The position numbers were made by a program, and so were the translations under genes. A stretch of DNA of 47,136 nt, the filler included, from Catajapyx aquilonaris (Eukaryota): NCBI GenBank assembly GCA_000934665.2. It is 2 parts of 2 records of this genome, joined end to end, with 100 filler letters (N's around TTAATTAATTAA, not from the genome) between each part and the next. Parts side by side here need not be neighbours in the genome. Positions count along the whole stretch, not along the records: positions 23,635 to 47,136 come from JYFJ02005667.1; 1 more part is not named here. One strand, given 5' to 3'. Each line of letters opens with the position of its first letter. Within the stretch, counting starts at the first letter, position 1. Below, one piece after another: positions 23,799 to 46,752 of the stretch. The notes below the pieces were generated by a model, which had not been told where the DNA came from, did no database searches, and worked only from the letters and a program-made list of their open reading frames with translations.

Positions 23799-23830
<32 letters not shown>

Positions 23831-23889: not shown

Positions 23890-24292
23890 CGTTGTCTGTA
23901 CAGGTCCGATCGTATGATGAAGGGACCGGATATCTCGCTGTTGTCGAAGCTGGTATCTTGGTCCGTCACAAAGAAGCTGACCAGGTAAAGGGACTCCAAT
24001 TTTTGGCTGGCTTCCCTCACTGCTTGAAGCAGGCTGTTCGTGTCTCATGTCGGCCATTTTTCTTTAGCTCCAACCGCCTCATGCCGAGCAGCCATTCGGC
24101 GGCCTGGCTGCTGCTCAGCCCTGAGGCCTCACCGTCGAGCGGCGTGACGTGCTTCCACAGCGACGAATCCTTGGCCAGTTCTTCAAAGTATTTTCATACG
24201 AGCTCAACCTTTGTCATCAGATCTGCTTCTGCCAGATAGGAGAACACCCGTAGTATCATTTCCCAAGGCAGCCGCGAAAAGGTACCTAGGTC
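23890..24292 (-). pseudogene. F-box/LRR protein exon, disrupted
   Basis: After acceptor tttttttttcag: DLGTFSRLPWEMILRVFSYLAEADLMTKVELV*KYFEELAKDSSLWKH (F-box; TGA at 24194-24196 where Cys is usual), then frameshifted LRR-like [17 protein letters not shown]. Confidence 0.8.
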
Positions 24293-24315
24293 CTGAAAAA
24301 AAAAGAAGCTTATAG

Positions 24316-24720
24316 CTAGTGAACACCACGATGTGAGTCGAAGTTGCAAGTGCTAAGAAGATCCTTCGAACTCTCGCTGGCAGGCAAGTTGTTCCAAAAC
24401 ATCCTGCGGTTTACTGGCATTTTAGGGACCAATAGCTTGACAATGTCATCTTTCTTCCTTTTTGCGATTCCGCGTGGTGCTGTAACTGTTGATTGTGGAA
24501 TGACAAGTCCCGCCTTTTTCTTGATGAAGAGAACTTCTGCGTGGGCGTCCTCTGTGAATTTTTTTGTCTTGTACTGCATTCGCCAATTGAAGTCATTGAC
24601 TGGGTACAGATGTGGCTACAACAGATTTTTTTGTGTTGCAATGGGATGCATTATTTTGTGTACATTTTCGCTTTCCTTCGAGAAATTGGTGGTTGTGGAG
24701 GGCCATCATAGTGTCCTAGA
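24316..24720 (-). mobile_element. Sola-like (DUF7869-type) transposase C-terminal fragment
   Basis: PRGIAKRKKDDIVKLLVPKMPVNRRMFWNNLP resembles the K-K-x-D-I/L...P...F-W/Y-x-x-L C-terminus of this family. Confidence 0.55.
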
Positions 24721-26362
24721 ATCTGTGTTTGGACATTAAGGTACCATACCACGGCTGGTAACACATGGGGTCCTTTTTCCAAAAGTCGGCTATGTCCGTC
24801 TTCGGATTGTGGGCCGTGCTGATAACCTCCTCCAGTGTTTATTTCTCCACCAAAATCTGTTGTTGGAATATATGGAGAAGAGAACGATTAATGAGAGTGA
24901 AGGCGGGAGACATGAGACGCATTACCGGCACGTGAGGTCCCTGGGACGTCTTCTGCGTCGCTGACGTCATCCATCTGAGGGTCCCTGATTGTTGGGTTGT
25001 TCTGCTGCAGGCCCATTGAAGCGCTCCTTGGAGGCAGCTTTAACATGGTAAAATCATGAGAAAAGGTCATAAAAATATGACAATGACAAAATTACAGGTG
25101 GTTAAGACATCCACAAACGTGTCCTGTGGTGGTATAGCAGTAGAAGCAGCTGGGAGGGCTAAACAAGTTGGATTGTTTCTTCCATTGTGTGTCAATTAAG
25201 CAACTCACAATATTGCCCAATATGTGTTGCCAAACACAAATTTCACGTAATTATGGCACTTACCGGAAAGCCAAAATTGTTACTGATCAGTCTAACGATA
25301 TCTTCGCCCATCTATGTGATCAAACCCAATACAATATGACTTTTATATTGCGAGTAATAAAAAGTCACTTGAAATCATTTCATGAAAAGTTCGTCACACT
25401 TGATTTTACGGAATAACTTTAAAAAAAAAAACCCATGAACTCTTCAATCAATTTGAGCATTCAAAATGAGTAACATTTCCCTCCTCACACTTAATCGATG
25501 CTACTCTAAATTACTATCGATGGTATTTGAGCGAAGTAGCGTAAGAATGCTGTGTTCAAGCATCCGGTCATGAGGTGTCCCAGAAATTCCTAATGCAGAA
25601 AATCCCGAAAAAGGTATGAAAATATACATATCCCTCTCCCACCACCGCACCGGAAGGAAGTGACGCTTCTAAACCTGAGGGTTTTCCTGGATAAGTCGTT
25701 GCTTAACAGAGGTTATACAGTATAACAGGTCATCAGAGAGCAACGAACCCTATAACCCCCAGGACATCTCATTACTTCAACAATAAACTAAACCAACCAA
25801 CCCACCCATCCTATATCCTCCTCGGATTGGGGCTTTATATATACTAGACAAGAAGATTTGCAAGCACCTGTCAGCCTGCTTCGCTTCCATTTCAACTTGA
25901 CGGTGGTACCGTCCAGCTGGGGCGTTGCGTGAATGGTGCCAATGAACAGCGCCCCAACTGGGTCTCGCTGCACCTGGACTACGGTTTTGCCAAAGATGCT
26001 ATCCAACACCATTAGCTCTTCGGCTTGTAGACCTTTGTTGCCTGTCAAAGGAGGGTCAGCGACCTAAGGCTGCGAAGGAGTTGGTCAATGGTTTCGCAAT
26101 GTTTTTTTGCTTCTGGGACACTACTATAGGCATACACAGTATAACACTTACGCACTGTTCTCCCATATTCACAACCACAGTCACGTTAACTGCACCACTC
26201 TGATCTAAACTCAGTTTCCAAATACCAGTGAAGGAATGTGGTGATGCATTAAAGGGAAAGAGGGTAGGAGAGGATGGGGCACCTTGAGTCGGGTTTTGTC
26301 TTTTATTTTTTTAAATACAGAAATGCAAATATATTTTGCAGCTTGTTTATTTCCCATGATCC

Positions 26363-26483
26363 TGGTTATACTTTGGGAAGTACCCACTTCAAAAAGGCAT
26401 TATACTTCTTGGCAAAAGGGGTCTCGGAGGGAGTTGTACATAGATTCAGCAGCAACAGTCCTCTCCTAGCCAATGATTAGTAA
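26363..26483 (-). repeat. Diverged copy of part of the hAT fragment at 27193-27317
   Basis: Direct alignment: tggttatactttgggaagtacccacttcaaaaaggca...ctagccaatga shared. Confidence 0.9.
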
Positions 26484-26859
26484 GCCAATGGGTAGGTGCA
26501 TTCAGGTGAAACTCTACAAGACAGCTTGGCCAAAGGATGGAGACTGTTGCCACTTGAAGTCTCCACATACAAATGTCACTTGTAGAACCACCCTGTAGCA
26601 TCCAGATTTGTGACATTATTGCAATAAGCTTCAAGTGTGGTCAGCCAAATCCAGTTATCAGTTGCTCTGCTCGCTGTCATTACTCGTAGCATCCACTCGG
26701 GTTTGGCAGCTCATATCTGCACAACCTGTCAAAGACAAAAAGGACAACATTAAGATCCGGTGTCACGCAATTACCCAAGACAGGACAGAGTTAATTCATT
26801 AGAAACAGTATGGGAGAAAAGTAAGCTATGAATCGACACATCAGGTCCAAAAGACACGC

Positions 26860-27545
26860 ACGTACCTGCTGTGTAGGAACTCGTCGGTGAAATCGAACCG
26901 TTTCTGGATCCCTTTGCAAATGTTTATGAGGAAGGAAAGGCACTTTGTGTGGAAGTCGTCAGGAAAGATCGCGTCTAGCCATGACCTCGGGTACCTTCTT
27001 GAGCTCCGCGACTCCCACATCCTTTTATGTTTTCTACCCGTGTGAAATATTCTGAGCGATCTGGCTGAATGGCATTCAAGGGCGCTTTTGACACATAATC
27101 TTATGTCATATAGCAATTGAGGAGGTCCCTGAATCTTGTTTCCATAGGATCAGTAATGACGACTCGTTCTGCCTGAATGAGCGGATTCATCTTGGTTATA
27201 CTTTGGGAAGTACCCACTTCAAAAAGGCACAATACATCTTGGCAAAAGGGTCTCGGAGGGAGTTGTATAGTGCAGATTCAGCAGCAACAGTCCTCTCTCC
27301 TAGCCAATGATCAGTAAAGAACTGAAGCAGTGTGTCCCACTGCTCTATGGTTCTGTCAACGACAGCACATAGGGAGAGCCATCTGGTTTGTGAGGACTGA
27401 AGCATTCTGTGCACATCTACCTCATAAAACATTTGAAATTTCACAAACTGCATCTGCCGCTTGCAGCAGCTGCTAAAGTAACTGAAAATGTTGCGTGCGA
27501 GGTCTTCAATGTGCCTGGGCAAAGAAGCTTTGCATGCCTCCGCCT
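26860..27545 (-). mobile_element. hAT transposase fragment (degraded)
   Basis: EACK..LPRHIEDLARNIFSYFSSCCKRQ..MLQSSQTRWLSL..VVDRTIEQWDTLLQFF..FLKWVLPKV, continuing with frameshifts to KCLSFLINICKGIQKRFDF; TRW motif. Confidence 0.88.
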
Positions 27546-27833
27546 GATGTGCCTTGGCACTTGATCATTCACCTCATGTGGTCCATGTGGAGGAGTTCTC
27601 TGCCTAATGTTGAGAGGAATCCCCTCCTCTTCATGGCCCACCCATTAGCGTTACTGTAAATGATGTATGCGTTGTTCGCCGTCACATTCATGGTGTGATA
27701 GAAGATCACCATTGGCCAGCGCTGGGTCCGTCCCCCTACCTTCCAGTGCTGGCAGATCAGATTGTTGTTGTTTTTTCCTTCAAAATGACGAACAAGTTAT
27801 AAAAGTTCAAAAACTTTTAAAAAATACATTTCA

Positions 27834-28245
27834 TTACTTGCAATTTTCGCAAATGAAAGATATGCTGTTTTCATCAAGTCCAGTACAGAGTTCGTGGGCC
27901 CACAAGAAACACATTTGGCACTGGATCCATTGTTCTTCTGATCCTGAAGCTGAAAAACTTTCGTTGCAGTAGATGCACTGTACGTCTTCTTGTTCATCAT
28001 CATCATCATCAAATAACACTCTTCTTGGGTTAATTTTCCTGTGCTTGGTGTTTTTCTTTCTACCATTGTTTCCCTTCTCTTCTGCTGCTTTTCGTTTTTC
28101 AGCTGCTTTTCTCTCTTTTACTTCTTTTTCATCCTTTGCAGCCTCAAGTCCATTTTTATATGGACTTGCTGTCAATATCTCTGCAGAGCCTTTCTTTCGG
28201 CTATTCTGCGTTTTCTTGCTGTTAGGTCTATACGAGGCACAGGAA
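27834..28245 (-). mobile_element. pogo/Tigger-like (DDE_1) transposase C-terminus with PHD finger
   Basis: SAEILTASPYK, charged linker, then CIYC..WIQCQMCFLWAHELC..FICENCK* (C4HC3 PHD). Confidence 0.8.
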
Positions 28246-28369
28246 CAATGTCATTTGGGCTCGCTGAAAAAGAAGATCCCGGTTGTAGGTCTGTGACCGG
28301 TGTCGGCAGCAGCCGGAGGGGCAACTACAGCAGCGGGGACAGGTACAACAGCAGCATTCATCTGGGTCT

Positions 28370-28572
28370 CTAGATAAGATGATGCAAGTAACTGGCTTCC
28401 CTGAGGAAATCAATGTGGCTTGCCATCTGAGCATGGGTAAACCTCTCCTGTAGACGACGGATTTGCAAGTCCTGCCGATTCCAAGTGCGGGACCTGGGCC
28501 TCCGCTGCCGAATACCGTCTCTGGCACGTTGATAGTCCAGGGACTGCGTCTCCTCGGTGGTCCGAAGTCGCC
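28370..28572 (-). mobile_element. MULE-like transposase terminal exon
   Basis: Acceptor ttatttccag then RLRTTEETQSLDYQRARDGIRQRRPRSRTWNRQDLQIRRLQERFTHAQMASHIDFLREASYL*, resembling the C-terminus of animal MULE transposases. Confidence 0.6.
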
Positions 28573-28817
28573 CTGGAAATAACATATAATATCATATTGC
28601 CACTTTATTTCGAGGCATTATTCTCTATACGTGGGAAAAATTAACTGGATGTATAACGATGTACTTGTCCAGAGTACAACAACCCAGTGATGTGCAAGGG
28701 AGGGGCCATGTTTAACCTAATATAAATTTTTTTAAACTGTACTCAACTGACCCAGGAAAGTCTACAGGTTTGGGTGACTGTTGATCATGTTCCTTGAAAG
28801 GGTTGCATGGAACTTAT

Positions 28818-28889
28818 AAGTAACTGGCTTCCCTGAGAGGAAATCGATGTGGCTTGCCATCTGACCATTGGTAAACCTCTCCTGTAGAC
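28818..28889 (-). repeat. Diverged copy of 28386-28455 (MULE C-terminus)
   Basis: Direct alignment aagtaactggcttccctga...cctctcctgtagac. Confidence 0.9.
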
Positions 28890-29353
28890 CGTAGATCTAC
28901 GAAGATGGCACAGTTGTCGGTTGCTGCAGCCTCAGAAGTCAAGCGCATGTCCACTCGCTCAATGCTGCGCCCATACCGGCAGATGAAGAAATCCTGCAAA
29001 TGTTAACATGGGATTAGCCAAGGTTTTTGAAACCACAAGCTGACTTGTGTGTCTATATATTTATGCAGCTACAAGTTCACAATTCTCACACTACCAGTTA
29101 GTTCACTAGAAACACGGTGTATGTGTATCAACAGGTGAGCAGATGTCATACAATTGAGTAATGAAAAATCTTCAGGAGTAGTGGTACTGGGGTTGTTGTT
29201 TATGGATGCAGCAGCCATGATTAGGTCATTTTTGACAGAAGTAGCCTTACTCCCACAGTCCCAAACCTTATTTATCTGGATCCATCGCAAAAATAAGACA
29301 CCTTCTCCTTAACATCCTGTATTGATCCAAATTTCCTTTTATTAACAGTGTGG

Positions 29354-30100: not shown

Positions 30101-30129
30101 ACCTGATTGATTTCGGCCAGATATTTCTG

Positions 30130-30462: not shown

Positions 30463-30592
30463 AAAAAGACACTTGCCTTGACCTGCATACCACTGCTGGT
30501 GATGCTGTAGCGCACGGAGGAGAGGCCCCTTACACCATCCAGCACATTTGTGGTTAGACTGGGTTCCCCGGATGCAAATTGAACAATAATGG
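30463..30592 (-). mobile_element. Second, diverged Polinton PolB fragment
   Basis: HYCSICIRGTQSNHKCAGWCKG/SPPCATASPAVVCRS aligns at DNA and protein level to 42343-42462 (HYCSICMQGTNSDHKCAGWCKGCYASPPCDTKSPGVVCGS). Confidence 0.85.
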
Positions 30593-31549
30593 GTCTTCCC
30601 CTTCCCTCTACCTATTTTCTACCAGACTCCCTATTTCTGCCTATTTCTCCCAGACTCCCTAATAACTACCACATTTCTACCAGTGTGCACAGTTTGGCGA
30701 CGACGCCGACGCCGACGGCGAGCTGGGGGGATTGGCGCCTCGTTTCGTATATAAATAGACCGTCGGGACCGGGCGGTGTTGGGAGGGGGAAATAACAGTG
30801 ACGATAGATGATGCGGATGACGGCGAAGAAGATTGTTTATTCAGCCCACTTGGCCTCGTGTTATAGCCTTCTCGGATTTCACATGTATTAAAATGGTACA
30901 TTATTGGGTCGTGGCGCTTCCCAGCTCCCAACAGCTACCGAGGAGCATATCCTCTCCGCTCATCCCCCCCTGGCTGTAGCGATAGAATCTGTCGCGGCGT
31001 TCCGACTCCACACGTCCATTCCAGATGTCCATCAGGAACTTCGGAAGTTCCAGGGAGGAGACGACCACCACCACCAGTCTCCTTGCCAGTTTGCGCCGGT
31101 CCTCCAGCGCCGCCTGTTGCTCGGGCGTCAGCTGCCTCGGCGGCGGGCGAGGAGCGGGCGGAGACGGAGGCGGGACGCTGGGCTCGCCATGGCGGTCGCT
31201 CAAACCTACTAATGCAGCAACCTTATTTCACAATACATTGGCAATCCTACCCTATCCATGACTTTTACTTGTCTAGTGAAATTACTCTAAAAATTCCGGA
31301 CGAGTCAGAAAAATTAGAGACGCCCGTTTTCAATTTTTGATAGTTCGTCTTGCCATCTGTTTTCACCCTCCTGTGGTTATCGTCAGAGTTCTTGCCCCCT
31401 TGCTGCACCCTACCGGTTAATTTGTACACTATTTCTCTCACGCTACAATACTGACCAACAACAAGGGCCACAATATTGGTATATACTTTGATGCCTTCCT
31501 TTGCATGTCTTCCTGCCCAGGCACTGGCCAGCACATTGCAGAAAAGATC

Positions 31550-32190
31550 ATCAATATATCAGGGGTGGAGTAGACAGACATCGAATAATATTTAGCTGTC
31601 TTGATTTCCTCTATAATAGTGCTCAATACGTCTTTCCCCATAATAGCTATGAGCTGGTCATATGTATTGGAAGACTTACGAGACAGGTAAGAAACTGACC
31701 CTTCCCCTTGTTGCCGTACTTTTCCAAGTGAGCAGCTAAAAGGGGGTCAAACTGGGAAAGCAACTCCAGTGTGCCTAAGAAGTTGCCATTGTTTGGTGAC
31801 CCAATCACCTGGTCATTACCTCGATAGGCTAAACCTCTTTCAGCTAAGGTTTTGAAAGTAGCAACTACTCTTTCCAGTACAGCAGCGGCATAAACACGCT
31901 CGGCTTGGTACTGCTCTATCAACAGTGAATTCAGGTGGCCAGATTCTTTTGCTCTTCGGCCCAAGGTCATGGTAGCATCCCTGTGGGCTTTACTGCTCTC
32001 ATGAGTCGCCATTCGCTGCGTGGCATTTTTCCAGTCGCAGAAGCCACTTCTGGAGAAAACAGCTCGCATTGAAAGCAAAAAGCTTTGCCTGTACGCGGGG
32101 AATAACAGAGGCAGTTTCTCCTCTTCTTCTCTCCATTTGGCAGAGAACATAAAAACTTGGACTTGCAAAAATATCTTTTTTGTTTTCCAT
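31550..32190 (-). mobile_element. hAT transposase fragment, ZMYM1-like (TTF zinc finger + DUF4371)
   Basis: KAFCFQCELF / GFCDWKNATQRMATHESSKAH..LAERGLAYRG..NNGNFLGTLELLSQFDPLLAAHL / IIEEIKTAKYYSMSVYSTPDI, with frameshifts. Confidence 0.9.
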
Positions 32191-32219
32191 CTATTTATGA
32201 TGATTGTGAGCTATACCTG

Positions 32220-32469: not shown

Positions 32470-32945
32470 CAAGGTATCGCCGTTGACAGTGACACCGTTT
32501 TCAATTTGCATGATTAAGCTCTCGTAAGAAATCAGACAAAGTCCTCTAAAGGCATAGGTTTCGATTCTCCACAGAACAAACCAAGCACTAATGGAACGTT
32601 GTCAAGCTCATGAACCATGCACGAAATCGGCCAGAAGCTCAAATTTCTCGCTGTTAAATATGGGCAAGCCATCAATGTTGAACGAGAGAGTCAACACCTT
32701 TGGAGAAAGAGTGGCATTTCTCAATTTTACATTGAAGCACTGCTCTAGTCCAAGGTGGTAATATTCTCCTTTATCTAATTCACGTGTCAGAGTTGCACGA
32801 GGAGTTTTCAGAATTGTTCTAGCATCTTGTGGCAGATCAGAAAGGCAAGGCTGCAGAATGTTTAGTAAACTGCATCTTGTGCATTATGTTTAACGCCGTA
32901 CTGCACAGCCCATTCCCTGAGTTGACAATCAAGCCCACCCTTTTC
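32470..32945 (-). mobile_element. CACTA/EnSpm transposase N-terminal fragment
   Basis: LREWAVQYGVKHNA / LPQDARTILKTPR..GEYYHLGLE..LSFNIDGLPIFNS (first catalytic D motif), frameshifted. Confidence 0.88.
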
Positions 32946-33458
32946 AGCTAGCTCTGCAACATTATGCGATGAATGGTCAAGGACTGGTTCCTCATCCGAA
33001 TCTGATGAGAAATCGGCAAAAATCGAATGGCCGAGCATGAGGAGAGCAGCAGGCGCTGCAGCAGCTGCGCCTGAACTGCTAGTCCCAGGAACTGAATCAG
33101 ACAAATTCTTACTGTCATCTGCACTAATACCTGCAGTTAGATTCTTATCAAAATTATTTGTTTCATGTGTGACACACTGTGAGGAACACCGATTTTGATG
33201 AAATTTGGTACAGTTGTAGGTCTCAGAGTTATATTGCTAGGCCGAATGTCACCCTAATCGCTCACCCTGTGCGGGGTGAAAGGTCATGGAATTGGCGACG
33301 TTCGGGGAGAGCACGTCGCGTTTTTTCCCACATTTTTTGTGATATGTACCACATGACAATACATATTGTGTCCTACTCCACTGCCAAAAATGAAGCTGGG
33401 CCACCCAGAGGCTACTGAGAAAATCTTTTTAAAAGAATGATGCATTAAAATGCTCAAC

Positions 33459-34115: not shown

Positions 34116-34584
34116 ATCATCTGCAATTCTTCATCTACAGCTGATGATCTTCCCAACGATGCTGCCGCCACCAGTTTAATTGTGCCTTCCAAGGATAATA
34201 TGTGAACCTCCAAGAAGTCATCCGTCCAATGTGCAAGTCGCTAGCGGGTCGCCGGCGGACCGGCGGCGAAAGTCGCGCCGATTTAGCCGCTATATGTCAC
34301 TCGACCCAGCAGCTACATAGCCGCGAAAATCGCGCTGCCGTAGCCCGGACTCCGCTCACCTTCCGGGGCACTACTTTTTCACAGATCCCCCCCCCCCCCN
34401 CCCCCCCCCCACTCTTCCTGGAACTGACTCGTCGGGGAATCAAGCCAAATAATAATAAGTCAGCAACCTGCTGCATTCATTCCAAATACTGACCATTTTT
34501 ATTAAATATTAAATGCAAAATAGCATCACACTATACACAGATGACAATTTGGCAGAAAGGTTTTTGAAACTATGCTACTAAATT

Positions 34585-35628
34585 GAGGGGTATAGAATCA
34601 AAAGGTACCACGTAACATTTTTCACGTTTCGAGATAAATGAGGAAAGCGTGTATCATGGAAACCATTAGGGGTACAACACTGAGTTTTGGCACATGGTTG
34701 GACACTAGCAGAATGCATTGAAAGGTAAGTAGATTGAAAATCAAGGAGACATGGACAGTGTGTTTAAACCCTAATATTGTTGCACGTGGTACGTTTTGAT
34801 AGTGAATACATAAGGCTGTAGGTAAATTTCTTGAATGATCCTGCTTTATGGCAACATGCCCGCCCAATACTGCCGATGACGGACAAAGTAGTGGATAGTT
34901 GTTGTTTTCTTGGGGGCAGTTGGTGTACCAGTTCGCCTGCGGATGCAGTCATTCACACTCGTGTACTTCAATATGAAAGCATCCTCTTTTTCCTTCAGTG
35001 GAGCTGCATAAAAGCAGCGATTGAACTCATGCACATCCTCTGCAGTTAGCTTCCCACATTCAAAAGCATTCGATTTGTAGGGATGTGAACACGTCGGTAG
35101 TCGAGGCGGCTTCCCAGAATGTCTGAAGAGCGTTCAGTATCACCACACAAGTAATTGAGCAATACTCATTGAGATGACGGAAATTAATGTCATTAATATG
35201 CACCTCTTCACTGTTGCTTTTGCTGCTGCCCATTCCTTGGGTGAAGTAGTCTTCTTCCTGGCAGCCTTCCTGCCTACTTCTTTGGGACATTGGGTGCTCA
35301 TTGTGCTCACCGAGTTCGTGGACATGTCTGCACACGCTCACCTTGCAAACAGACTGACACTCTGTACAAAGAATGCAGCATTGCCAGATGGTACCACAAA
35401 GCCATCGCACATGGTACCTTTTGATTCTCCCATCGCGTAATTTTTGCTCCCACATGGTACCTTCTGATGCCAACCTCCAACTTTTCCCCCTTTTTTCAAT
35501 GGCACATGGTCACATTTTGGAAATCAGTTTGTTGCCACGTGGTACGTCTTGATTCCAACTATGCGATGCCGTCCTTAACTCAATTTATGAAATTTTGTTA
35601 CGTGGTACCTTTTGATTCTATACCCCTC
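34585..35628 (-). mobile_element. Internally deleted Sola2-like DNA transposon with both TIRs
   Basis: Perfect 33-bp TIRs GAGGGGTATAGAATCAAAAGGTACCACGTAACA (34585-34617, 35596-35628); flanks AATT/AAAT; subterminal CAC(A/G)TGGTAC repeats; transposase N-terminal remnant (FYAAPLKEKEDAFILKY) on the minus strand. Confidence 0.85.
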
Positions 35629-35839
35629 AAATACATATGTAGGCCTAAATACGTAAATACGTATGTCACGTCTTAAATACTTAATCTATTAGAAATTGCA
35701 ATTCCACTGAATGGCAATAGCAGTGACAAACAACCAGCAAACTTAAAGTTGCACCTTTGAGTAACAGTATCATACACACATCCTAAATGTATGTACATTT
35801 ACAATTTCAATTATTGTAGCAAAACATATTCAGACACAA

Positions 35840-36500
35840 TCATGACAAAGTGGCAAAAAAATTCTTTCACTTGCGCCATCCCCACTGGATGGCAGAGCTA
35901 CACCTTTGCATTTCAATAATTTCGTGGAATATCTCTTCAATTGTGTTTGATGAAGTGGCTCAAACTGTATCAGGGTGATACCCAACCTTGATGCTTTGCA
36001 AGGGTCTTGTCTTTGTTTGCATTCAGAAGCCACCATGTAAGTATCACTGTCATGTTTTTTCAAAATGCTGCACTTGCCGTATTCTACCATAGTTCAAAGC
36101 ACAAAAGCTATCTTTACGGAATTTACATTTAATAGTGTAGTTACTACACTGGAACGTGTACACTACATTTTCATCACAATTATCAGGAACACGCTTTGTG
36201 GTTGAAGAAAGGGGTGCAATTCTACTTAGATTGTGCTCATGAATTCTCTTCACTATTTGTTGATGGGTGGCCCTTTGCATTCTTTGATCTGGTGCAAATT
36301 GGTTTCAAAGGGGAATGCGCTGAAGTTGTCCAGGGAACCAAACTTCTTTACATCATCAGCTAGGTGAATTAAATTGTGTACGTTGTAGACCATTACTGTC
36401 TTTCCATAAAGTGTGGCACCATTTTTAACAAATGTAACTAACAGTTCATTTGCATATATGCAATGTTGGGTAATTTGACTGCAAGACCTGAAATGCAGAA
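35840..36500 (-). mobile_element. CACTA/EnSpm transposase C-terminal fragment
   Basis: YANELLVTFVKNGATLYGKTVMVYNVHNLIHLADDVKKFGSLDNFSAFPFETNL / QQIVKRIHE. Confidence 0.9.
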
Positions 36501-36777
36501 CAATCAGTCGCATTGGACTGCTGATTGTATAATGGAGGAAGACGGTTTGAAGATTGCAATGTACCAATATTTTCAATAATTCCATAGGTTACTGAATTTT
36601 TCCATCTTAAAACTGGATGGTCAGAAATTCGGACTAATTACGTATATAGTTGAAGGACTTGTACATTACTGCCCTACTTCGGAGGAGCGGGGCGTGCAAC
36701 ATTCATAACTCAATTTCAACCTAAACGTGACTGATAGTTCTGCAGCACATGAGGTTTTCACTTAGCCATCATCTTAC

Positions 36778-37945: not shown

Positions 37946-39138
37946 CTGACCAAGAAGAAGAAGAAGAAGAAGAGGTGGTCCCTTACCTTACTGACAACTC
38001 CTTGGTCTGTGTGGTGCTTTCCTTTCCCGCTTTGGCTTTGCTTTGTGTGTGGAATGTGGTGCTTTATGGGAGCGGCAGTTCCTTTTCCTGCCAACAGAGG
38101 ATGGTTTTGGTGTTGGCTGCCAGTTGCCGGCAAATGTTGGAACTCGTGGTCGAATTTGAGTCCAAAGCTCCAGCTTGCCAGTTGCCAGCTTAGAAAATTA
38201 ACGGCACTCGATGTATCGATGGTTACTTGTGAAATATCGATATGTATCACCACGTGCACCACTTCCACATTATTGTAACGACAGTATCGGATCTCGATGG
38301 CTCAAATTCGATATTACTGTAATTTCGGCTACGTACCGTACCGTAAAAAATTGGTACTATAATTCACTTGATTGATTCAAAGTCCGTTCCACACTGGCTG
38401 CCGAGTTTCTCCGATTGGGATATTAGGCATTAATTTTCCGGACGAGAAATAAATTAGGCTATTATCGTGGTATGGGGGGAATTCAGAACTTAATCGCAAT
38501 TACCCCCTGAAAACCAAGAAGTTGTGGTGATGCGCAGGAATTTGTCGGAAAAATAGTCAGTCACTGTAGTTTTATAGCAAAAGCAAATTATTATTCATAA
38601 AGGTTGGTTACATTCGTTACGGAATTTACATTAAAAATTGTGTGTGGTTGCTCTTGGTCCTGGCTTACTCTTTGCGCTGTTTTAATGATGGGTCGCCTCC
38701 ATCAGAGTAAGTTCGGAGCCGTGCGGAGTGTTCATCCTGGTGGTTTCTGGCGGTCAGAATAAGCTCGGCTGGCCTCCTTCCTTCTGCCCCAGTCCAATCC
38801 TCTTCCGTCGGTTGTCCAGAGCGCAAACTGCCGGCATCTTCTTCCAGTTGCACGTCACTTTTTCTAACAGTCCGCACAATTTGGAGGGATCACTAAACAT
38901 CACTCCACTCACGCCTGGCTATCACACTTCCAAGCCGGTTGCTTCACAATTACTCTCCACAAAGCACAAGCTCTCAGTATTCACACAATGTGCAGCACAA
39001 GGAAGGCAAAGTCTCATCCTTCCTTCTCTGCATCATTGCTGACTGGTTACCGTTCCAAAAACTCCACGTGAGCCTAATATCGCAAGCTCAGTTAGAAAAA
39101 AAATGATTCCGCCATTCAAAATTTCTGGCCCAAATGTC

Positions 39139-39490
39139 AGACCATGACACTCTTTCCATAAAGTGTGGCACCATTTTTAACAAATGTAACTAACAGTTCA
39201 TTTGCATATATGCGCATGGCTTCGGGCACCGTGGGCTGAAGAAGTATGCGACAGGCCACACTTAAAAGCATAAATGATCATAAAGAGGACCAGGCAAGAT
39301 TCCCTTCAATGCCACAGGTCCAACATAAAGCAAAAAAAAAGGTGCAACTCAGTTCCCTTCCACCTATCAAGCACTGGCAAACCACAGGACTTACGGGAAA
39401 ATTCACATGGTATGTGTTTGTGGCCCAGTTGCTTGGCAAGCTGCAGGTAGGGTGCTCTCATTGGCAATTATTTGTGCTTCAGTATTCGGT
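39139..39490 (-). mobile_element. CACTA/EnSpm transposase middle fragment
   Basis: IPCEFSRKSCGLPVLDRWK.TEL / LYVGPVALKGILPGPLYDH / LSVACRILLQP..IYANELLVTFVKNGATLYGK; 39139-39213 duplicates 36387-36461. Confidence 0.88.
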
Positions 39491-39883: not shown

Positions 39884-40446
39884 TCAAAGTGGCAAGGGAA
39901 GCTGCAGGCCCCTTTGTAGATAGCGGCACTTCCTTTCCACCCACTCATCGAAGTCTTCATCGGGGTCAACGACACGGATCGGCGTGTTGATTTGTATTAA
40001 ATTTGGCAGGGAGAGGAGAAGCTCGTGAAATTCTGGGGCGGCATCGCCCATTTCCAAAACCTTCAAACATTTAAGATTGGGGCACGATTGTATGTGGACC
40101 CAATCGTTCCCCCCCATGAAGTTCACCTCCAACCTTTCCAACTGGTTTCCAACTGCTTCCAACATCTTCAAGTTATCTGGGTCGGTAAGATTGTCCAAGA
40201 CCAGCCCCTTGTTCCTTCGTCCTAAATCGGCGGCCACATCTGCCCACTTAGTGCAAACTTTTGGCACGACGAGGATCCTCTCCTTCGGGTCGAGGAAGGA
40301 AAAAATGTGCTGTTGGCAGTCTTCCACCAAAATCCCATTGAACAAGTCTGCTCCTGTTGCAGGCGGTTCAATAGGGACTGCAGCCATCTCGATGGTGGTG
40401 GTGGTGGTGGTGCTGCTGCTGCTGCTGCTGCCGCCTTCCTCACAAC
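39884..40446 (-). CDS. F-box + LRR-like protein, uninterrupted terminal exon
   Basis: Acceptor cgtactttcag at 40447; open frame with LVEDCQQHIFSFLDPKERILVVPKVCTKWADVA (F-box) and LERLEV, CPNLKCLKV, LPNL (LRR-like). Confidence 0.7.
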
Positions 40447-41670: not shown

Positions 41671-41903
41671 TCAATTAACTCAGTGACAATCATTACCAAC
41701 AAGTTGCCCAGTTATTTTAGAATTGGTCCCACTGTGAGCTGGAGGGAGAGTCTGATGGTGGAGACACGACGCACAGTGGAGCTTTTCAACGGAAATGTTA
41801 GCCCAAAGATTATCTGGTTGTTGTCGAAAGATTATGCACTGAGGGAAGACATGAAGTAATTTATAAGTTGAATCATAGTAAACATTTAACAAATGTGGTC
41901 TCA

Positions 41904-42845
41904 TCACAAGGGAATTAATACATTTACTAGATTAACTTCATGCACCCATGTCTTCGGGCTGGCTGGATGTTGACGATCCTGAGTCGTTTCCACGTCGAAG
42001 AAGATAATAATGAAATTGTATCTGGTCTTGTCCAACCTCTTCTTCTTTTTCTGCGGTTCCTCACTTTCAGACTCTTTGAGATGTTCAGGCACGTACTCCG
42101 CAAGATGGTCAGGAGTCTTGTAAGGTTGAATGTAGCAGAGGTGTCCTGGCATTACCAAAGCCTTGCACGTTCGACAATACCGTTCCCCACAACGATGTGC
42201 GGCATCCTTCCCCCTTTTCCGGAGATCCACCAACGTGGAGCACTTTTTGCAAACATACAGGGACTGGCAAAGCATGGGGCTGGACGTGGAGGGTGTTAGG
42301 TGACGTGCCATACACGCGTCACCGTAAAACAGTCTTTTACAAGACCCGCATACCACTCCTGGTGATTTTGTATCACACGGAGGAGAGGCGTAACACCCTT
42401 TGCACCATCCAGCACATTTGTGGTCGGAGTTGGTTCCCTGCATACAAATCGAGCAATAATGGTGAGCTAAGAAAAGAGCGGCTGGAGAAAAACTGGGGCA
42501 AAAATGTCTCGCTTTGAGAGACCCGTAGATGTACAAGGGAATGCGAGGCTCGGATGGTGTCGATTGTGGCCCCCTGTACACCCACTGGTCGTTCTCATGA
42601 CAGAAAATACATAGTCTGTACATATGAAGGTGGTTTTGGAACAGTTTCACCTCCTCCAATCCGCACCCTCCCTCGACTTTCTCCACACTTGCCTCACGCA
42701 TAAGCCTCAGGGCAGCATCTTTATGATTGGACGGTCTTGTAATGTTTTTGAATTCCTTACGAGACATTTTCTTCCCCTGTCCAGCCATTGCAACAACCAG
42801 GGCTCATGGGAGGCACAAGTTGTCCTTCTTATTGTCCATCGAAAT
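41904..42845 (-). mobile_element. Polinton/Maverick (adintovirus-like) protein-primed DNA polymerase B, N-terminal fragment
   Basis: DNLCLP*ALVVAMA (stop 42804-42806), CGLEEVKLFQNHL, Cys/His-rich region, HLCYIQP, Exo I motif FFDVETTQ and HEVNLV; truncated thereafter. Confidence 0.9.
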
Positions 42846-42979
42846 TACTGATCTGAGCTTATTACAGCGTTGTTCAAAAGACATATTGCGGAAGGCGCTG
42901 TAGTTCTCCCGTCCAGCACCTCTCATTTATGTGTATAGGGAAATCCTCGCTCCGCTCGCCTGTTCCTAGGGCGCAGCCG

Positions 42980-43028
42980 CGCAGGCCTAGAAAACCACTC
43001 GCTTCGCTCGCTGTTTTCTAGGCCTGCG
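42980..43028. repeat. Perfect 16-bp-stem hairpin
   Basis: CGCAGGCCTAGAAAAC-17 nt loop-GTTTTCTAGGCCTGCG. Confidence 0.9.
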
Positions 43029-43779
43029 GTGTAGGCCATGTTCTTAATGATGCTCACCCAACAATTATCCTCATCATACTCCCCTCCCCCTGACCTCCCC
43101 CCTCCTTATATTAAACCTTTGACGGCTAATACATCATAATATTACGATGTCCTGATGGTTTGTGAATTTAGCCCTCGAGGATGTGCATAGAGAAGGCGAA
43201 CTTTTCAGTGCCAAACCCGGTTCAATATGCTCCTGCCATCTCTTGGATTGTGACTCAAGTACCATGGCAACTCCAGATCCCCCCCTCCCCCCTGTTCCCG
43301 CCAAGTTGAGTCGTATATGCCAAGGTCACGTGGGGCGGCTCTTTAGGGGGGGGGGGGGAGTTCATCACTACGATTATATGTTAATGTAATAAAAATATGT
43401 ATTGTCTAGTGCTTACACTGCAGGAGAAAAAATAACAATTTCCGTCTTGGACTTGGCAACTTCTGGCTTGCAGAAATTTAAATGTTAATTTTTAAAACAC
43501 TAAAATAATATCTCCTGAATTAATTTTAGTCCCTTGATTATAGGCCTGGATGTGATGACAATAATCTGCAAAAATATGTATATAATAAGAAACTATTGCC
43601 CAGTATTAGGATTTTGTGCTTCATGCAAACTGACGGTTTCTTTTTCTGATATGACAACCAAATGTTCATAGTTGACCTACTCCTCTTGTGTTACATTATT
43701 CTTGTATGCGTAGACGTCAAAAGGTTCGCAGGATGTTGCTTTCATACAACTGTGCAACAATAAATAAATGTTCATGTTA

Positions 43780-44282
43780 TTAACAGACACTTCCTGTCTG
43801 GTCATAACAGATATGCAGTCACTGTCACTGAGAGTATCCAGCACAGGAAGATGTACTCCTGCTTTTGATGACATCTGAACTAATTTTTGTGTCTTGAACC
43901 GAGTCCCATTCTGTGCAAATTCAGGAACTGGATTGTGATACTTAACGTTACTGCACAATTCACCCTTCACAAAATGTACGTCGCTGAACAAGAGTGGTTC
44001 ATCAGATACAGGTTTTTTAACATGCCATGCTTGCAACACGACTGTACAGGTTTTCGCAGAAGGCAGTTTATCAACATCTGAGTGGCATACATCTAACTAA
44101 AAGTATAGCAGAGCTACTACATGCTTGCATTTGCCGTCAATGCCTGCTGTACACGAACAATTTGCCCATTTAAGTGTTCCTTGTACTTGGAAGCAAGTTA
44201 TGACTTTGTAACAGCCGGTTTTCATGGAGGGCTTGCAGGTTGAGCGAACATATACATAGCTGCCCTGTGCACAACTCGACAC
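43780..44282 (-). mobile_element. SWIM zinc-finger protein fragment (N-terminus typical of YqaJ-nuclease-bearing transposon ORFs)
   Basis: VRSTCKPSMK..YKV..ANCSCTAGIDGKCKHVVALLYF* then in the same frame KTCTVVLQAWHV. Confidence 0.75.
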
Positions 44283-44286
44283 CTCC

Positions 44287-45290
44287 TAGATAGATGAGGG
44301 AGCAATGGCTGAACTGCTTATGGGCTATGAAAAGTGTGCCTGGGTCACTTTGGCGGTTACCTTTCACAATCTTTTCACAAGTATGACATCCATGTACAAA
44401 TATCACATACTTTTTGGCAATAAAACTGCAGAGGTAAGAAAACGCATTTTCTGAAGGTAGATCAGGTATGTCTCCTTTCAACGGCACATGCTGGGTTGAG
44501 AGATGCAGCCCATGCGCATTTTCCCTACTGCCTTGTACTTCTCTAGGTGAAGTTTTCTTCATGGCACGGGACATTTCTCCCACAAAAGCACTTAAGGAAA
44601 CAGCCATTGCATCCCCATCACCAGCACAGTTTGCACCAGGTGTTTGCTCTCTTGATTCGTCATAGAATTGAAGCAAGTTTTGCGAAATGCAGTTATGAAC
44701 TGGGAGGAAGTGGGCCGAAATGCATTTCCATTCTGCTTTCGAATGGTGCCAAAATAGTTCTGTAGCCCGTCTTGATTTAATCTGCTGCTGAAAACAAATG
44801 CAAAACCACCGACACCAAACAGTTCCTGGAGTAATCCAGTGAGTGCGGAGATGGACAGTTTCCAGCCGTAGATGCAGTGCAGTTTGGAACTGCAGTCATT
44901 CCCTTCTAAATTTAAAAACTGGAAAGAATCTTAACATTTTTGGTGCCCCTTGTAAAAAATCCCAATGAATGCTTTCTTTCCGCATGGCTGAACGGTAAGG
45001 CTTTCCTGCCATTATTAGCCTACTTGAGTTAAAACAATCAAAAAGGCGGTCAAAAAAAAATAAATACAAAACCGTGCTGTTCCCATGGCATGACGTGGGA
45101 GTGTTCCCAATTCGATAAATGTTTCTATTGCTGCAGCAACTGAAAACGACAACACCTGAGTGGCTTTCTTCACTTTCATAGCAGTAAATGGCGGCAAATA
45201 GATGTGCTCATAGGTCAGTTTAGGACATAACTTAAATGCCCGTTTGCAGTCCTCAAGATATAATAAATTCATTATTATTGGAGCAACACT
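44287..45290 (-). mobile_element. P-element/THAP9-like transposase fragment
   Basis: KLCPKLTYEHIYLPPFTAMKVKKATQVLSFSVA..GTARFC..FDRLFDCFNS / QDGLQNYFGTIRKQNGNAFRPTSSQFITAFRK / GANC..ENAFSYLCSFIAKK..CHTC. Confidence 0.92.
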
Positions 45291-45648
45291 GCAACAGGAA
45301 CCAACCTCGGTCAGATTATGCTCAATCGGGGCCATGGTACACCTTCCCGTGAATGTTACTGTGTTTTGGTCCCCCTTAAGAGAGCTATTGGTATCTCGAT
45401 AACGAAATTTAACCTCGTAAAACCGATTGCTCCAGAAAGTTCAATTGGATGCGGGTTTCACATCGTAATATTATTCCTTTTTTAAAAAATATCAAAGACC
45501 ATGACTGGACACCCTCTGCTTGAATTGAAATGGAACCAGCCTCCTAACAGATCGTTAGCACACGTTGAACGACCCATTAGGTAATACCAGATTCGGTTGG
45601 TGCAATCGGGCGTTGCCAAACGAAAATATGGTAGGCTACCATACCAGC

Positions 45649-46040
45649 CTATACCTTCAGAATCGCGACGACTTCACCATGTCCCTCTTTTTCTGCTAAG
45701 CCAGTGGGCGTCATTCCCTCATTGTCTGTGGCCGATTTGTTTGCCCCTTCGGAAAGGAGGAAACGAACCACTGCTGACTGCTTGTAAAATGCAGCGATGT
45801 GAAGAGGGGTTCGATTCTTCCATCCCTCTTCCTCCAGACCTGTCCCCTTCTGCAGGAGATATTCGACAACCCGTACATGGCCATCCCGACACGCGCAGTG
45901 AATGGGCCTGTTCCCAAACAAGTCCATTTTCTTCATAAGTTCCCCTCGCTCAATCAATGTCTGGCACGTGTTCAGATGTCCTTTCCATGCTGCCAGGAGC
46001 CAGGTGAAGGGGTGTTGAACCCAGAGAGTCTGTCTCGTTT
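45649..46040 (-). pseudogene. Ankyrin-repeat protein fragment (3-4 repeats)
   Basis: GSTPLHLA (frameshifted), GNRPIHCACRDGHVRVVEYLLQKG, NRTPLHIAAFYKQSAVVRFLLSEGAN, GMTPTGLAEKEGHGEVVAIL. Confidence 0.88.
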
Positions 46041-46539
46041 ACAGACCATCCTCTTCCGAGAAGGTACGCCACTGTGACGGTAATTTCCGTCGACTAAAGA
46101 TTCGGGGTGACCAAATCAGTAGTCCTTGAGTAGGCTAACTATTAAATATAGAGAGGGCAGCCCCACCCTGTGGTGATGGAATTGCGTGTATCGTCTCGAT
46201 TAAACGACCCTCTTCTGATAATTCTGAAATAATAAATTGCTTAATTGACCAGATAAATAGGCAAAATAAGAGACACCTTTCCCACCTTCCCAGACGTCTC
46301 TGGTTCTGTCTCCAGTGTACCAATTACAGTCCCAATATCTTGGCCCATGTCGTTGAATATCCTTACTGGAATTCCTCCCCCCACCTCACGCCCACTCTCT
46401 TTCATCTCTTCTACTCTTTGTAATGTCAGTCCAATTGGCACCCCCTGGGGCTGGGTAATCTGCCACAAGTACTGTATGGCCTTGGAGCCATCACGGGGCG
46501 GCTGCACCTGGAAGTGGAGGTGGTCAAAGTCCAGTACCC

Positions 46540-46752
46540 CCAAAAATCCTCTGCCCTGTCCACTTCTTCTGCAGTCGCCAGAGGAAGTACTGGCAGACTA
46601 CAGCCGTTTGCATCATCAGGCTCTTCAGCCCGATGATGCTGATCCTCAGAATACCGGGTACCCTGCTGACGATTCAGCTGATGGATGATATTGTCCAACC
46701 TGACCTCCAGGCTTGCGCGCATGTCTGCCACCGCCTTAAAGGGACACTCCAC
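46540..46752 (-). mobile_element. Possible DUF4806-type CACTA accessory ORF fragment
   Basis: Coiled-coil RLDNIIHQL followed by LPLATAEEVDRAE. Confidence 0.4.

What the first reader, a model, noticed from the sequence alone, without database searches (positions are those of the whole stretch)
23890..46752. 23-kb uni-directional mosaic of transposon, virus and gene snippets: candidate antisense piRNA 'memory' locus
Seen: more than 20 recognisable fragments from at least 8 unrelated families (3 hAT types, CACTA, MULE, pogo, Sola, P, SWIM/YqaJ-type, Polinton, Penelope ribozyme) are packed almost end to end. Nearly all lack TIRs and TSDs, and all are coded on the minus strand; I recognise none on plus. 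Random insertion would give mixed orientation (20 of 20 on one strand is about 2 in a million if independent). Known: uni-strand piRNA clusters such as Drosophila flamenco hold TE fragments antisense to the precursor. Inference: one plus-strand transcript would supply antisense guides against a whole DNA-transposon mobilome, like a eukaryotic spacer library of short snippets rather than nested full insertions.
Basis: partly seen in the sequence, partly recalled or inferred. Interest (0 to 1): 0.9.

Follow-up and report, generated by a model that had tools for sequence, protein, structure and literature searches.

The report
One-way array of transposon gene fragments
A 23-kb stretch of an arthropod genome is packed with broken pieces of jumping-gene and ordinary genes that all point the same way, the layout expected of a one-strand piRNA "memory" locus, but no RNA data were available to show that it works as one.

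Summary
The core observation holds. Every protein-homology hit in window 23890-46752 lies on the minus strand: 14 fragments, about 12 independent, and none on plus. The families are pPolB (Polinton type), ZMYM1-like hAT, a DUF4218/DUF4806 transposase-like family (4 pieces), P-element TNP-like, F-box (2) and ankyrin, plus weak piggyBac, PHD and FAM200 leads. Database-free measures agree: open-frame excess, purine skew, and 5 of 5 internal repeat pairs direct.

MULE, pogo, Sola and SWIM/YqaJ were not verified. Rfam found no hammerhead or Penelope ribozyme.

Contigs of public DNA runs show single-copy depth and exact contigs across several fragment junctions. The block is therefore not multi-copy cargo and not an obvious chimera. 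One 1,051-bp element with 35-nt terminal inverted repeats and an AAT duplication is present/absent in the sample, so it is a recent insertion.

The best reading is a unistrand, flamenco-like piRNA-cluster candidate (about 0.45). No RNA holder was listed, so precursor strand and small RNAs remain untested. It differs from Drosophila flam-like loci: no LTR/ERV content, DNA-transposon snippets, and co-oriented host-type gene bits.

This scan noted a similar one-way array on another piece of the same genome (e1-7506408, not checked here).

The parts
23890..46752 (-). Whole one-way array; coding sense of all recognised fragments is on the minus strand. True ends unknown: a scaffold gap lies at 23535-23634 on the left, and on the right the window ends at 47136.
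24146..24280 (-). F-box-like fragment with one in-frame stop; host-gene-type pseudogene piece.
   Evidence: Pfam PF12937, E 6.5e-8 in read-through; E 6.9e-4 for the ORF alone.
26328..26487 (-). Shorter direct duplicate (90% over 130 nt) of the 27.2-kb hAT-like piece.
27199..27564 (-). 122-aa ORF; lead to the FAM200/GTF2IRD2-like (hAT-derived) helical domain.
   Evidence: ESM Atlas feature scores 0.92-0.93 to PF27046 clusters. This is a lead only; no Pfam hit.
27665..27775 (-). Weak match to the C-terminal end of a piggyBac-type DDE domain.
   Evidence: Pfam PF13843, E 0.0087, below the curated cutoff.
27840..27977 (-). PHD-type zinc finger (weak).
   Evidence: Pfam PHD_2, PHD and C1_1, E 0.0015-0.0027, below cutoffs.
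30463..30592 (-). Second, short pPolB-related piece; direct repeat of 42326-42462 at about 80-87% identity.
31504..32194 (-). ZMYM1-like hAT transposase fragment (DUF4371 region only).
   Evidence: the search for homologous proteins gave 20 hits, all with PF14291 and 10 of them also with PF05699, best E 7.6e-58 at 64% identity. tblastn best E 1.1e-65. Pfam DUF4371 E 0.016.
32523..33020 (-). DUF4218/DUF4806 transposase-like family, N-terminal part (about residues 120-233 of proteins of about 680 aa).
   Evidence: 1902 library proteins at E<=1e-3. Of 16 long hits scanned, 4 carry DUF4218 and 3 carry DUF4806. One source names a member 'Transposase domain-containing protein'. tblastn E 1.8e-23.
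34584..35634 (.). 1,051-bp element with 35-nt perfect terminal inverted repeats and a 3-bp AAT duplication. It is present/absent in the sequenced sample and has about 5 related copies in the genome.
   Evidence: TIRs. A joint 34583 to 35635 at depth 13-19, against about 30 for flanking unique contigs, and depth 150-170 inside the element.
36259..36579 (-). DUF4218/DUF4806 family, C-terminal part (about residues 486-549).
   Evidence: tblastn E 9e-18; Pfam DUF4218 E 0.039.
39115..39443 (-). DUF4218/DUF4806 family piece. Contains direct copies of 36387-36461 (96%) and 40618-40877 (97%).
   Evidence: tblastn E 2.3e-12; repeats.
39887..40420 (-). Intact 178-aa ATG-to-stop ORF with an F-box domain; no relative found at similar length.
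   Evidence: Pfam PF00646, E 4.6e-5, above cutoff. No hit among 64 candidates. Exact single-copy contig 39730-40382.
40588..40806 (-). DUF4218/DUF4806 family piece; duplicate of the 39.2-kb piece.
   Evidence: tblastn E 3.9e-9.
41925..42959 (-). Protein-primed DNA polymerase B (Polinton/Maverick type), N-terminal third only; contains a 299-aa open frame. The PF03175 polymerase domain itself is absent.
   Evidence: 25 hits, 24 of them with PF03175, best E 6.9e-27 at 31% identity. tblastn covers residues 253-529 of a 1378-aa protein and stops at about 41925.
42980..43330 (.). High-copy short repeat (contig depth in the thousands); family and orientation not determined.
   Evidence: tables 2 and 7.
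44682..45275 (-). P-element/THAP9-type transposase fragment. The GTP-binding insertion domain is followed by the RNase H C-terminal domain, colinear on minus.
   Evidence: Pfam PF21788 E 4.6e-7 and PF21789 E 4.4e-6, both above cutoffs.
45652..46038 (-). Ankyrin-repeat gene fragment (about 3 repeats, 129-aa open frame).
   Evidence: Pfam Ank_2 E 5.3e-27.

Best explanation
The block is a single-copy 'graveyard' of short internal pieces of DNA-transposon and Polinton genes, plus a few host-type gene pieces. It has been filtered so that only one orientation survives.

The most likely filter is a long transcription unit that reads the plus strand. Every fragment would then be antisense in the RNA. 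That makes the block a unistrand (flamenco-like) piRNA source locus whose transcript is cut into guides against the matching transposon mRNAs.

Shown: the one-way layout, single-copy state, many families, relatives of several fragments elsewhere in the genome, and one recent polymorphic insertion.

Inferred, not shown: transcription, its direction, processing into piRNAs, and silencing.
For: (1) 14 homology-supported fragments lie on minus and 0 on plus, by methods applied equally to both strands. The left 23.5 kb is empty by the same methods.

(2) Database-free agreement. Minus-strand ORF content is about 10 sd above shuffles, against about 3 sd for plus. The six longest plus ORFs all overlap long minus ORFs. 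All 5 internal repeat pairs are direct.

(3) At least 7 unrelated protein families are present, each only as a short internal piece. Examples are 277 of 1378 residues of pPolB and only the DUF4371 part of the hAT. This is what clusters built by insertion and erosion look like.

(4) The block is single copy. Exact contigs at depth 27-35 cover 27495-28336, 30541-32223, 33187-34399, 39730-40382, 40842-42976, 43337-44324 and 45794-46526, bridging junctions of unrelated fragments.

(5) Several pieces have relatives elsewhere at 88-99% identity. Depth is 100-170 at 32.1-33.4, 34.8-36.1 and 36.8-37.4 kb, and 756 contigs were laid in run X1. The locus therefore matches families still present in the genome.

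(6) A 1,051-bp TIR element is present/absent in the sample, so the locus is still receiving insertions.

(7) CpG observed/expected is 0.64 with TpG+CpA 1.25 in the block, against 0.81 and 1.09 on the left. This fits germline methylation of the block, by inference.

(8) Unistrand clusters with TE fragments opposite to transcription are established in Drosophila (PMC10643416, passages read) and planarians (bioRxiv 10.64898/2026.01.28.702291, passages read). piRNAs are reported across arthropods including chelicerates (PMC11726155, passages read).

Against: - No RNA of any kind could be examined, so neither transcription nor its strand is known.
- Poly(A) signals are not depleted on the proposed precursor strand: AATAAA plus ATTAAA are 26 on plus against about 17 expected, and 16 on minus against about 19.
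- There is no strand asymmetry of TpG against CpA: 1.251 against 1.249.
- No LTR/ERV, reverse-transcriptase or integrase domain is present. In Drosophila flam-like loci the strand bias is carried only by Gypsy elements (PMC10643416).
- The host-type pieces (two F-box, one ankyrin) are co-oriented too. Selection for anti-transposon guides does not predict this.
- Some co-orientation comes from local duplication rather than independent capture: 39.1-39.5 kb against 36.4 and 40.6 kb, 26.3 against 27.2 kb, and 28.4 against 28.8 kb.
- Only about 23 kb is visible, next to a scaffold gap.
Confidence: 0.45

Rival explanations
1. Ordinary antisense bias inside a long intron or other plus-strand host transcription unit. 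Fragments carrying sense-strand splice, start or poly(A) signals were purged, leaving only minus-sense debris. There is no dedicated piRNA function.
For: This is the same one-way layout as the main reading. It would also explain why host-type gene pieces (F-box, ankyrin) are co-oriented. No piRNA-specific feature was demonstrated.
Against: No plus-strand exon-like Pfam match occurs anywhere in the 47-kb window. That is 0 of 24 plus pieces and 0 of 114 left-half ORFs, although short exons would be missed. By recall, known intronic orientation biases are modest and mainly concern retroelements, not a 14 to 0 ratio for DNA-transposon pieces.
Confidence: 0.15
2. The co-orientation is built in by the mechanism that assembled the block, not by selection. 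Pieces of mRNAs or DNA were strung together by template switching (reverse transcriptase or replication). Alternatively they were captured by one large mobile element (Helitron-like or Pack-type) that is now a single decayed copy.
For: - The fragments are short internal coding pieces that lack element ends.
- Host-type gene pieces share the orientation.
- Snippets are re-used in direct orientation inside the block. For example, 39139-39490 joins copies of 36387-36461 and 40618-40877.
Against: - No Rep/helicase, reverse-transcriptase or integrase domain was found in any ORF.
- The block is single copy, not a propagated element.
- No A-runs of 9 or more lie on the minus (sense) strand as poly(A) tails would; all 7 A/T runs of 9 nt or more in the block are A-runs on the plus strand.
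- The one datable event is a normal TIR insertion with a target duplication.
Confidence: 0.15
3. The block is transcribed on the minus strand, in the sense of the fragments. An example would be a pseudogene-like long RNA that is a target or 'spread'-type piRNA source rather than an antisense archive.
For: - In planarians, clusters enriched for sense hAT, Mariner and Polinton annotations exist beside the antisense seed clusters (bioRxiv 10.64898/2026.01.28.702291, passages read).
- Long open frames survive on minus: 299, 241 and 199 aa.
- Poly(A) signals are not enriched on minus.
Against: No RNA evidence either way. No promoter was identified. The right end of the block runs out of the window.
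Confidence: 0.1
4. Chance plus local duplication plus ascertainment. A few independent insertions happened to share a strand, and tandem or segmental duplication multiplied them.
For: Three of the five internal repeat pairs are close neighbours, 434 to 1387 bp apart. Four or five of the 14 fragments rest on weak matches.
Against: Counting only strongly supported, non-duplicate fragments still gives 9 of 9 on one strand, two-sided p of about 0.004 (my arithmetic). These are F-box 1, ZMYM1-hAT, three DUF4218-family sites, F-box 2, pPolB, P-type and ankyrin. The minus ORF excess is spread over the whole 23 kb.
Confidence: 0.1
5. Assembly artefact: unrelated reads or transcript-like pieces joined into a false mosaic.
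For: A scaffold gap (two 44-N runs) lies just left of the block, with single Ns at 34400 and elsewhere. No contig longer than 1.7 kb was laid on the block.
Against: Exact contigs at uniform depth of about 30 bridge junctions between unrelated fragments: 27495-28336, 30541-32223, 40842-41926 overlapping 41897-42976, 43337-44324 and 45794-46526. These are probably the same reads the assembly used, so long-range order is untested.
Confidence: 0.05

Closest known systems
flamenco and flam-like unistrand piRNA clusters of Drosophila (PMC10643416)
   Same: A dense array of truncated mobile-element pieces with a near-total bias to one strand. It is single copy, draws on many families, and receives new insertions.
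   Different: - The Drosophila loci are 227-1,085 kb and are defined by LTR/Gypsy (ERV) enrichment. Only Gypsy elements carry the strand bias there (passages read).
- Here no LTR, RT or integrase signal exists. The content is DNA-transposon and Polinton coding snippets plus host-type gene bits, and only about 23 kb is visible.
- piRNAs, promoter and soma/germline expression are unknown here.
Planarian unidirectional 'seed' and 'spread' piRNA clusters (bioRxiv 10.64898/2026.01.28.702291)
   Same: These are unidirectional loci. Some classes contain hAT and Polinton sequence and pseudogene-like short ORFs (passages read).
   Different: - Seed clusters are antisense to LTR elements.
- The classes rich in DNA transposons carry them mostly in sense.
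- The median cluster size is 1.9 kb.
- It is a different phylum, and function there was shown by small RNA data that are lacking here.
Mosquito EVE/TE piRNA clusters likened to CRISPR arrays (recalled: Whitfield et al. 2017, Palatini et al. 2017; not read here)
   Same: The idea of a heritable archive of co-oriented short foreign snippets that gives antisense piRNAs.
   Different: By recall, those snippets are RNA-virus fragments embedded in LTR-retrotransposon sequence. Here there are no viral RNA genes and no LTR context, and the only virus-like piece is a Polinton polymerase fragment.
Helitrons or Pack-type transposons carrying captured gene fragments
   Same: A mosaic of co-oriented fragments from unrelated genes without their own ends.
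   Different: There is no Rep/helicase domain and no terminal inverted repeats around the block. The block is single copy rather than a propagated family. Helitron termini were not searched.

Membership tests
Unistrand (flamenco-like) piRNA cluster | Most transposon fragments lie in one orientation. | tested here: met
   14 fragments on minus and 0 on plus; 5 of 5 internal repeat pairs direct.
Unistrand (flamenco-like) piRNA cluster | Abundant 24-32 nt, 1U-biased small RNAs from one genomic strand, antisense to the transposons. | not testable with these tools
   No RNA holder listed for the stretch. Only DNA-type contigs could be laid.
Unistrand (flamenco-like) piRNA cluster | A single promoter and a long precursor transcript running opposite to the fragments. 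| not testable with these tools
   No RNA data. The left edge abuts a scaffold gap. Poly(A) signals are not depleted on plus, which is weak and indirect.
Unistrand (flamenco-like) piRNA cluster | Enrichment of LTR/Gypsy (ERV) elements carrying the strand bias, the criterion used in PMC10643416. | tested here: not met
   No RVT, rve, gag or env Pfam match in 251 ORFs or in the six-frame read-through. The content is DNA-transposon and Polinton pieces.
Unistrand (flamenco-like) piRNA cluster | Size of tens to hundreds of kb, at a fixed syntenic position. | tested here: inconclusive
   About 23 kb is visible, bounded by a gap on the left and the window end on the right. No related genomes could be compared (one search found no look-alikes).
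Unistrand (flamenco-like) piRNA cluster | Fragments match transposon families present or active elsewhere in the genome. | tested here: met
   Related contigs at 88-99% identity and depth 100-170 over several pieces, plus a polymorphic TIR-element insertion. Other pieces are unique at 88% or more.
Helitron with captured gene fragments | Rep/helicase gene, or membership of a multi-copy family sharing the same cargo. | tested here: not met
   No Helitron_like_N or PIF1 match. Single-copy depth.
Helitron with captured gene fragments | 5' TC and 3' hairpin-CTRR termini, inserted between A and T. | not tested
   The ends of the block are not defined, so no search was made.
Polinton/Maverick element | pPolB together with integrase, packaging ATPase, protease and capsid genes between TIRs. 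| tested here: not met
   Only the N-terminal third of pPolB and a 130-nt second piece are present. No rve, ATPase or protease matches.
Penelope-like element (hammerhead ribozyme) | Hammerhead ribozyme motif, with RT and GIY-YIG domains. | tested here: not met
   No hammerhead family in Rfam at E<=1 over the whole window. No RT match.

The most novel reading that the evidence does not exclude
The block is a working unistrand piRNA source in a non-insect arthropod that is devoted to cut-and-paste transposons and Polintons rather than retroviruses. It is built from short coding snippets, host-gene pieces included. These snippets are acquired or re-copied in one orientation by a dedicated process, such as template switching or copy-paste within the locus, rather than by whole-element insertion followed by decay. 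That would make it a true 'spacer-array-like' archive.
Probability: 0.1. Interest if true: 0.8.

Novelty: new member of a known kind. Interest (0 to 1): 0.4.

Why it matters
If small RNAs confirm it, this would be a flamenco-type one-strand cluster outside insects that targets DNA transposons and Polintons. It would show that orientation-filtered archives are not tied to endogenous retroviruses.

It would also give a compact, uniquely mappable locus with a polymorphic new insertion, useful for studying how arthropod clusters gain content.

The co-oriented host-gene pieces and the internal direct re-use of snippets raise a testable question. Is the orientation imposed by selection after insertion, or by the way the pieces are added?

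Without RNA data it remains a well-documented candidate, and the second of its kind noted in this genome.

Tried and rejected
- No whole genome is held for this window, so copy number and parent genes could only be judged from run contigs.
- No RNA holder was listed for 36753-46752. Run X5 (other sample, kind unknown) gave one exact 154-nt contig at 30778-30931 at depth 2.8, and otherwise only repeat pieces. This cannot be read as expression.
- Rfam at E<=1 gave no hammerhead, only chance-level miRNA-like hits on the TA/TG microsatellite and on a hairpin at 367-515. No tRNA genes were found.
- The F-box ORF 39887-40420 has no relative of 97-312 aa, so I could not decide whether it is a host gene, a captured piece or a new gene.
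- The ESM Atlas gave no usable name for 40696-41124; there was only a 0.84 lead to a cluster with SWIM in 26% of members.
- The left half shows a plus-strand ORF excess over shuffles (2981 against 1217+-291). This suggested a mirror-image arm of a bidirectional cluster. Its ORFs do not look like proteins and gave 0 Pfam hits and 0 tblastn hits, so I dropped the idea.
- The TpG against CpA strand asymmetry, tried as a trace of transcription direction, showed nothing.
- The poly(A)-signal count showed no depletion on plus.
- The six-frame X-stop Pfam scan added only a better F-box score.
- Look-alike stretches in other scanned genomes: none.

Full report
WHAT THE WINDOW IS. The window is eukaryotic and no whole genome is held for it. 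Earlier notes of this scan call the genome an arthropod (unchecked). The nearest named relatives of one fragment come from chelicerates and Hydra. The window has two 44-N scaffold gaps at 23535-23634, just left of the finding. G+C is 0.41 left of the gap and 0.45 in the block.

CHECK OF THE OBSERVATION, BOTH STRANDS TREATED ALIKE.

Pfam on ORFs. I translated every stop-to-stop ORF of 50 aa or more from 23500 to the end, 251 ORFs. Of the 248 that start at or after 23890, 126 are plus and 122 minus. I also took every ORF of 60 aa or more in the left part, 114 ORFs. All were scanned against Pfam at E<=0.01.
- Eight ORFs hit, and all eight are on the minus strand of the block.
- The hits are F-box-like (24.2 kb), DUF6229 (probably spurious), the C-end of a piggyBac-type DDE domain, a PHD finger, F-box (40.3 kb), the GTP-binding insertion and RNase H C-terminal domains of P-element/THAP9-type transposases (44.7-45.3 kb, colinear), and three ankyrin repeats (E 5e-27).
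- The left half gave nothing.

Six-frame read-through. With stops read as X, 5 of 24 minus pieces and 0 of 24 plus pieces hit.

Relaxed threshold. At E<=1 on the 120 ORFs of 70 aa or more (59 plus, 61 minus), the extra minus hits bear transposon-type names: DUF4371 0.016, DUF4218 0.039 and FLYWCH 0.024. The nine plus ORFs with any hit bear unrelated names, none at 0.01 or better.

HOMOLOGY SEARCHES.
- The 299-aa frame 41907-42803(-) matches 25 longer proteins, 24 of them with PF03175, the protein-primed polymerase B of Polintons/Mavericks (best E 6.9e-27, 31% identity). tblastn shows that only residues 253-529 of a 1378-aa relative are present and that the match stops abruptly at 41925.
- 31650-32210(-) matches 20 proteins that all carry DUF4371. 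Ten of them also carry the hAT dimerisation domain, and several are named zinc finger MYM-type protein 1-like (best E 7.6e-58). tblastn finds one locus, 31504-32194(-).
- 32611-32883(-) has 1902 relatives at E<=1e-3 in the representative library. Of 16 long ones scanned, 4 carry DUF4218, 3 carry DUF4806 and 9 carry nothing. One source calls a member 'Transposase domain-containing protein'.
- Using the 46 hits of 500 aa or more as tblastn queries on the whole window gave four loci: 32523-33020, 36259-36579, 39115-39443 and 40588-40806. All are minus. I did not test that assignment.
- The ESM Atlas gives a FAM200/GTF2IRD2-like (hAT-derived) lead for 27199-27564(-) and nothing usable for 40696-41124(-).

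The total is 14 fragments, about 12 independent, from 7 to 9 protein families. All are on minus and none on plus.

DATABASE-FREE CHECKS.
- Residues in ORFs of 80 aa or more: minus 5610 against 1764+-372 in dinucleotide shuffles; plus 3905 against 2489+-462.
- The six longest plus ORFs all overlap long minus ORFs, as antisense shadows do.
- The minus strand is purine-rich throughout the block: plus-strand purine fraction is 0.478 there against 0.512 on the left.
- Self-comparison finds five repeat pairs and all are direct. The only inverted pair is the two ends of one element. Three of the five pairs are close neighbours, so local duplication contributes.

WHAT WAS NOT CONFIRMED. Rfam at E<=1 has no hammerhead family anywhere, so the 'Penelope ribozyme' is unsupported. 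MULE, pogo, Sola and YqaJ have no Pfam support. A SWIM-like CxC...CxH motif near 44.1-44.3 kb was seen only by eye.

IS IT REAL DNA, AND HOW MANY COPIES? Four DNA-type runs of one sample hold 88-90% of the sampled words of 36753-46752. A fifth run, of another sample, holds 2%. I laid contigs of X1, X2 and X5 on 26753-46752.
- Long exact contigs at depth 27-35 cover 27495-28336, 30541-32223, 33187-34399, 39730-40382, 40842-41926, 41897-42976, 43337-44324 and 45794-46526.
- They bridge hAT-like/piggyBac/PHD, pPolB-piece/ZMYM1-hAT, hAT-like/pPolB, and ankyrin/next-fragment junctions. The mosaic therefore exists at read level and is single copy.
- These runs are probably the assembly's own data, so this is not independent, and long-range order is untested.
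- Very high depth marks short repeats at 42980-43330, 45478-45533 and 39557-39815.
- Depth of 100-170 with variant contigs at 88-99% identity marks 32.1-33.4, 34.8-36.1 and 36.8-37.4 kb. Several fragments therefore belong to families with other copies in the genome.

A RECENT INSERTION. Contigs at depth 13-19, about half the unique depth, join 34583 to 35635 and skip 1,051 bp. The skipped piece begins and ends with 35-nt perfect inverted repeats and is flanked by AAT on both sides. The joined form differs from a precise empty site by one base. This is a polymorphic insertion of a roughly 5-copy TIR element. It shows that at least some content arrives by ordinary transposition.

INTERPRETATION. 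Random insertion does not give 12 of 12 on one strand (about 5e-4, my arithmetic). Something either filters orientation or builds it in. The best-known filter is a unistrand piRNA cluster. In Drosophila flam and flam-like loci most fragments lie opposite to cluster transcription (PMC10643416, passages read). Planarian seed clusters are unidirectional and antisense to LTR elements (bioRxiv 10.64898/2026.01.28.702291, passages read). piRNAs are reported across arthropods including chelicerates (PMC11726155, passages read).

The block also has the other expected traits. It is single copy, draws on many families, contains only eroded internal pieces, has relatives elsewhere, and carries a new polymorphic insertion. 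It shows stronger CpG depletion than the flank (0.64 against 0.81). I therefore rank the plus-strand precursor / antisense archive reading first, at about 0.45.

AGAINST IT, OR OPEN.
- No RNA could be examined.
- Poly(A) signals are not depleted on plus: 26 against about 17 expected.
- There is no TpG/CpA asymmetry.
- There is no LTR/ERV content, which is the defining content of flam-like loci.
- The three host-type pieces share the orientation, which guide selection does not predict.
- Snippets are re-used in direct orientation inside the block.

These points keep alive an intron-type filter (0.15), a built-in mechanism such as template switching or capture by one decayed element (0.15), minus-strand sense transcription as in planarian spread clusters (0.10), chance plus duplication (0.10) and misassembly (0.05).

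COMPARISON AND NOVELTY. It works, if at all, like flamenco. Membership in the flam-like class as defined in Drosophila fails on LTR/Gypsy content and is untestable on small RNAs and promoter. It is not a Polinton, a Helitron or a Penelope element by their defining features (see membership table). The idea of a co-oriented snippet archive likened to CRISPR is already in print for mosquito EVE clusters; this is recalled, not read here. I rate it a new member of a known kind, of moderate interest. The same scan has noted a similar array elsewhere in this genome (e1-7506408), which I did not check.

Noticed in passing
window 358-524: Near-perfect hairpin: 68-nt arms, 99% complementary, 31-nt loop. 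It gives chance-level MIR444-like Rfam hits on both strands and is followed by a 17-nt tandem repeat at 535-904. Probably a small foldback or MITE-like element.
   Followed up: no
window 39887-40420 (-): Intact 178-aa ATG-to-stop ORF with an F-box domain inside the array. It lies on an exact single-copy contig and has no relative of similar length among 5.8 billion proteins. It could be a young gene, a captured gene piece or a chance survivor.
   Followed up: partly
window 34584-35634: 1,051-bp element with 35-nt perfect TIRs, internal sub-terminal repeats of the TIR motif and an AAT target duplication. It is heterozygous or polymorphic in the sequenced sample and has about 5 related copies. 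The superfamily is not determined.
   Followed up: partly
window 23890-46752: All seven homopolymer runs of 9 nt or more in the block are A-runs on the plus strand, the longest being 17 A at 30314-30330. There are no T-runs, although plus is T-rich overall. The left half has 7 A-runs and 5 T-runs. Unexplained.
   Followed up: no
window 23704-23850: A TA/TG microsatellite sits directly between the scaffold gap (23535-23634) and the array. It produces spurious miRNA-family hits in Rfam.
   Followed up: no
window 30778-30931: One exact 154-nt contig (depth 2.8) from a run of another sample of the same species label, kind of library unknown. It lies on a unique, CpG-rich part of the array (CpG o/e about 0.9 at 30.5-31.5 kb).
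   Followed up: no
window 42980-43330 and 45478-45533: Two very high-copy short repeats (contig depths of thousands to about 17,000) are embedded in the array. They are likely SINE or MITE families. Their orientation relative to the family was not determined.
   Followed up: no
window 37500-38300: Low-complexity G+C-rich stretch (Glu, Pro, Gly and Ser runs) with long open frames on both strands and no family match. It may be a decayed acidic or proline-rich coding piece.
   Followed up: no
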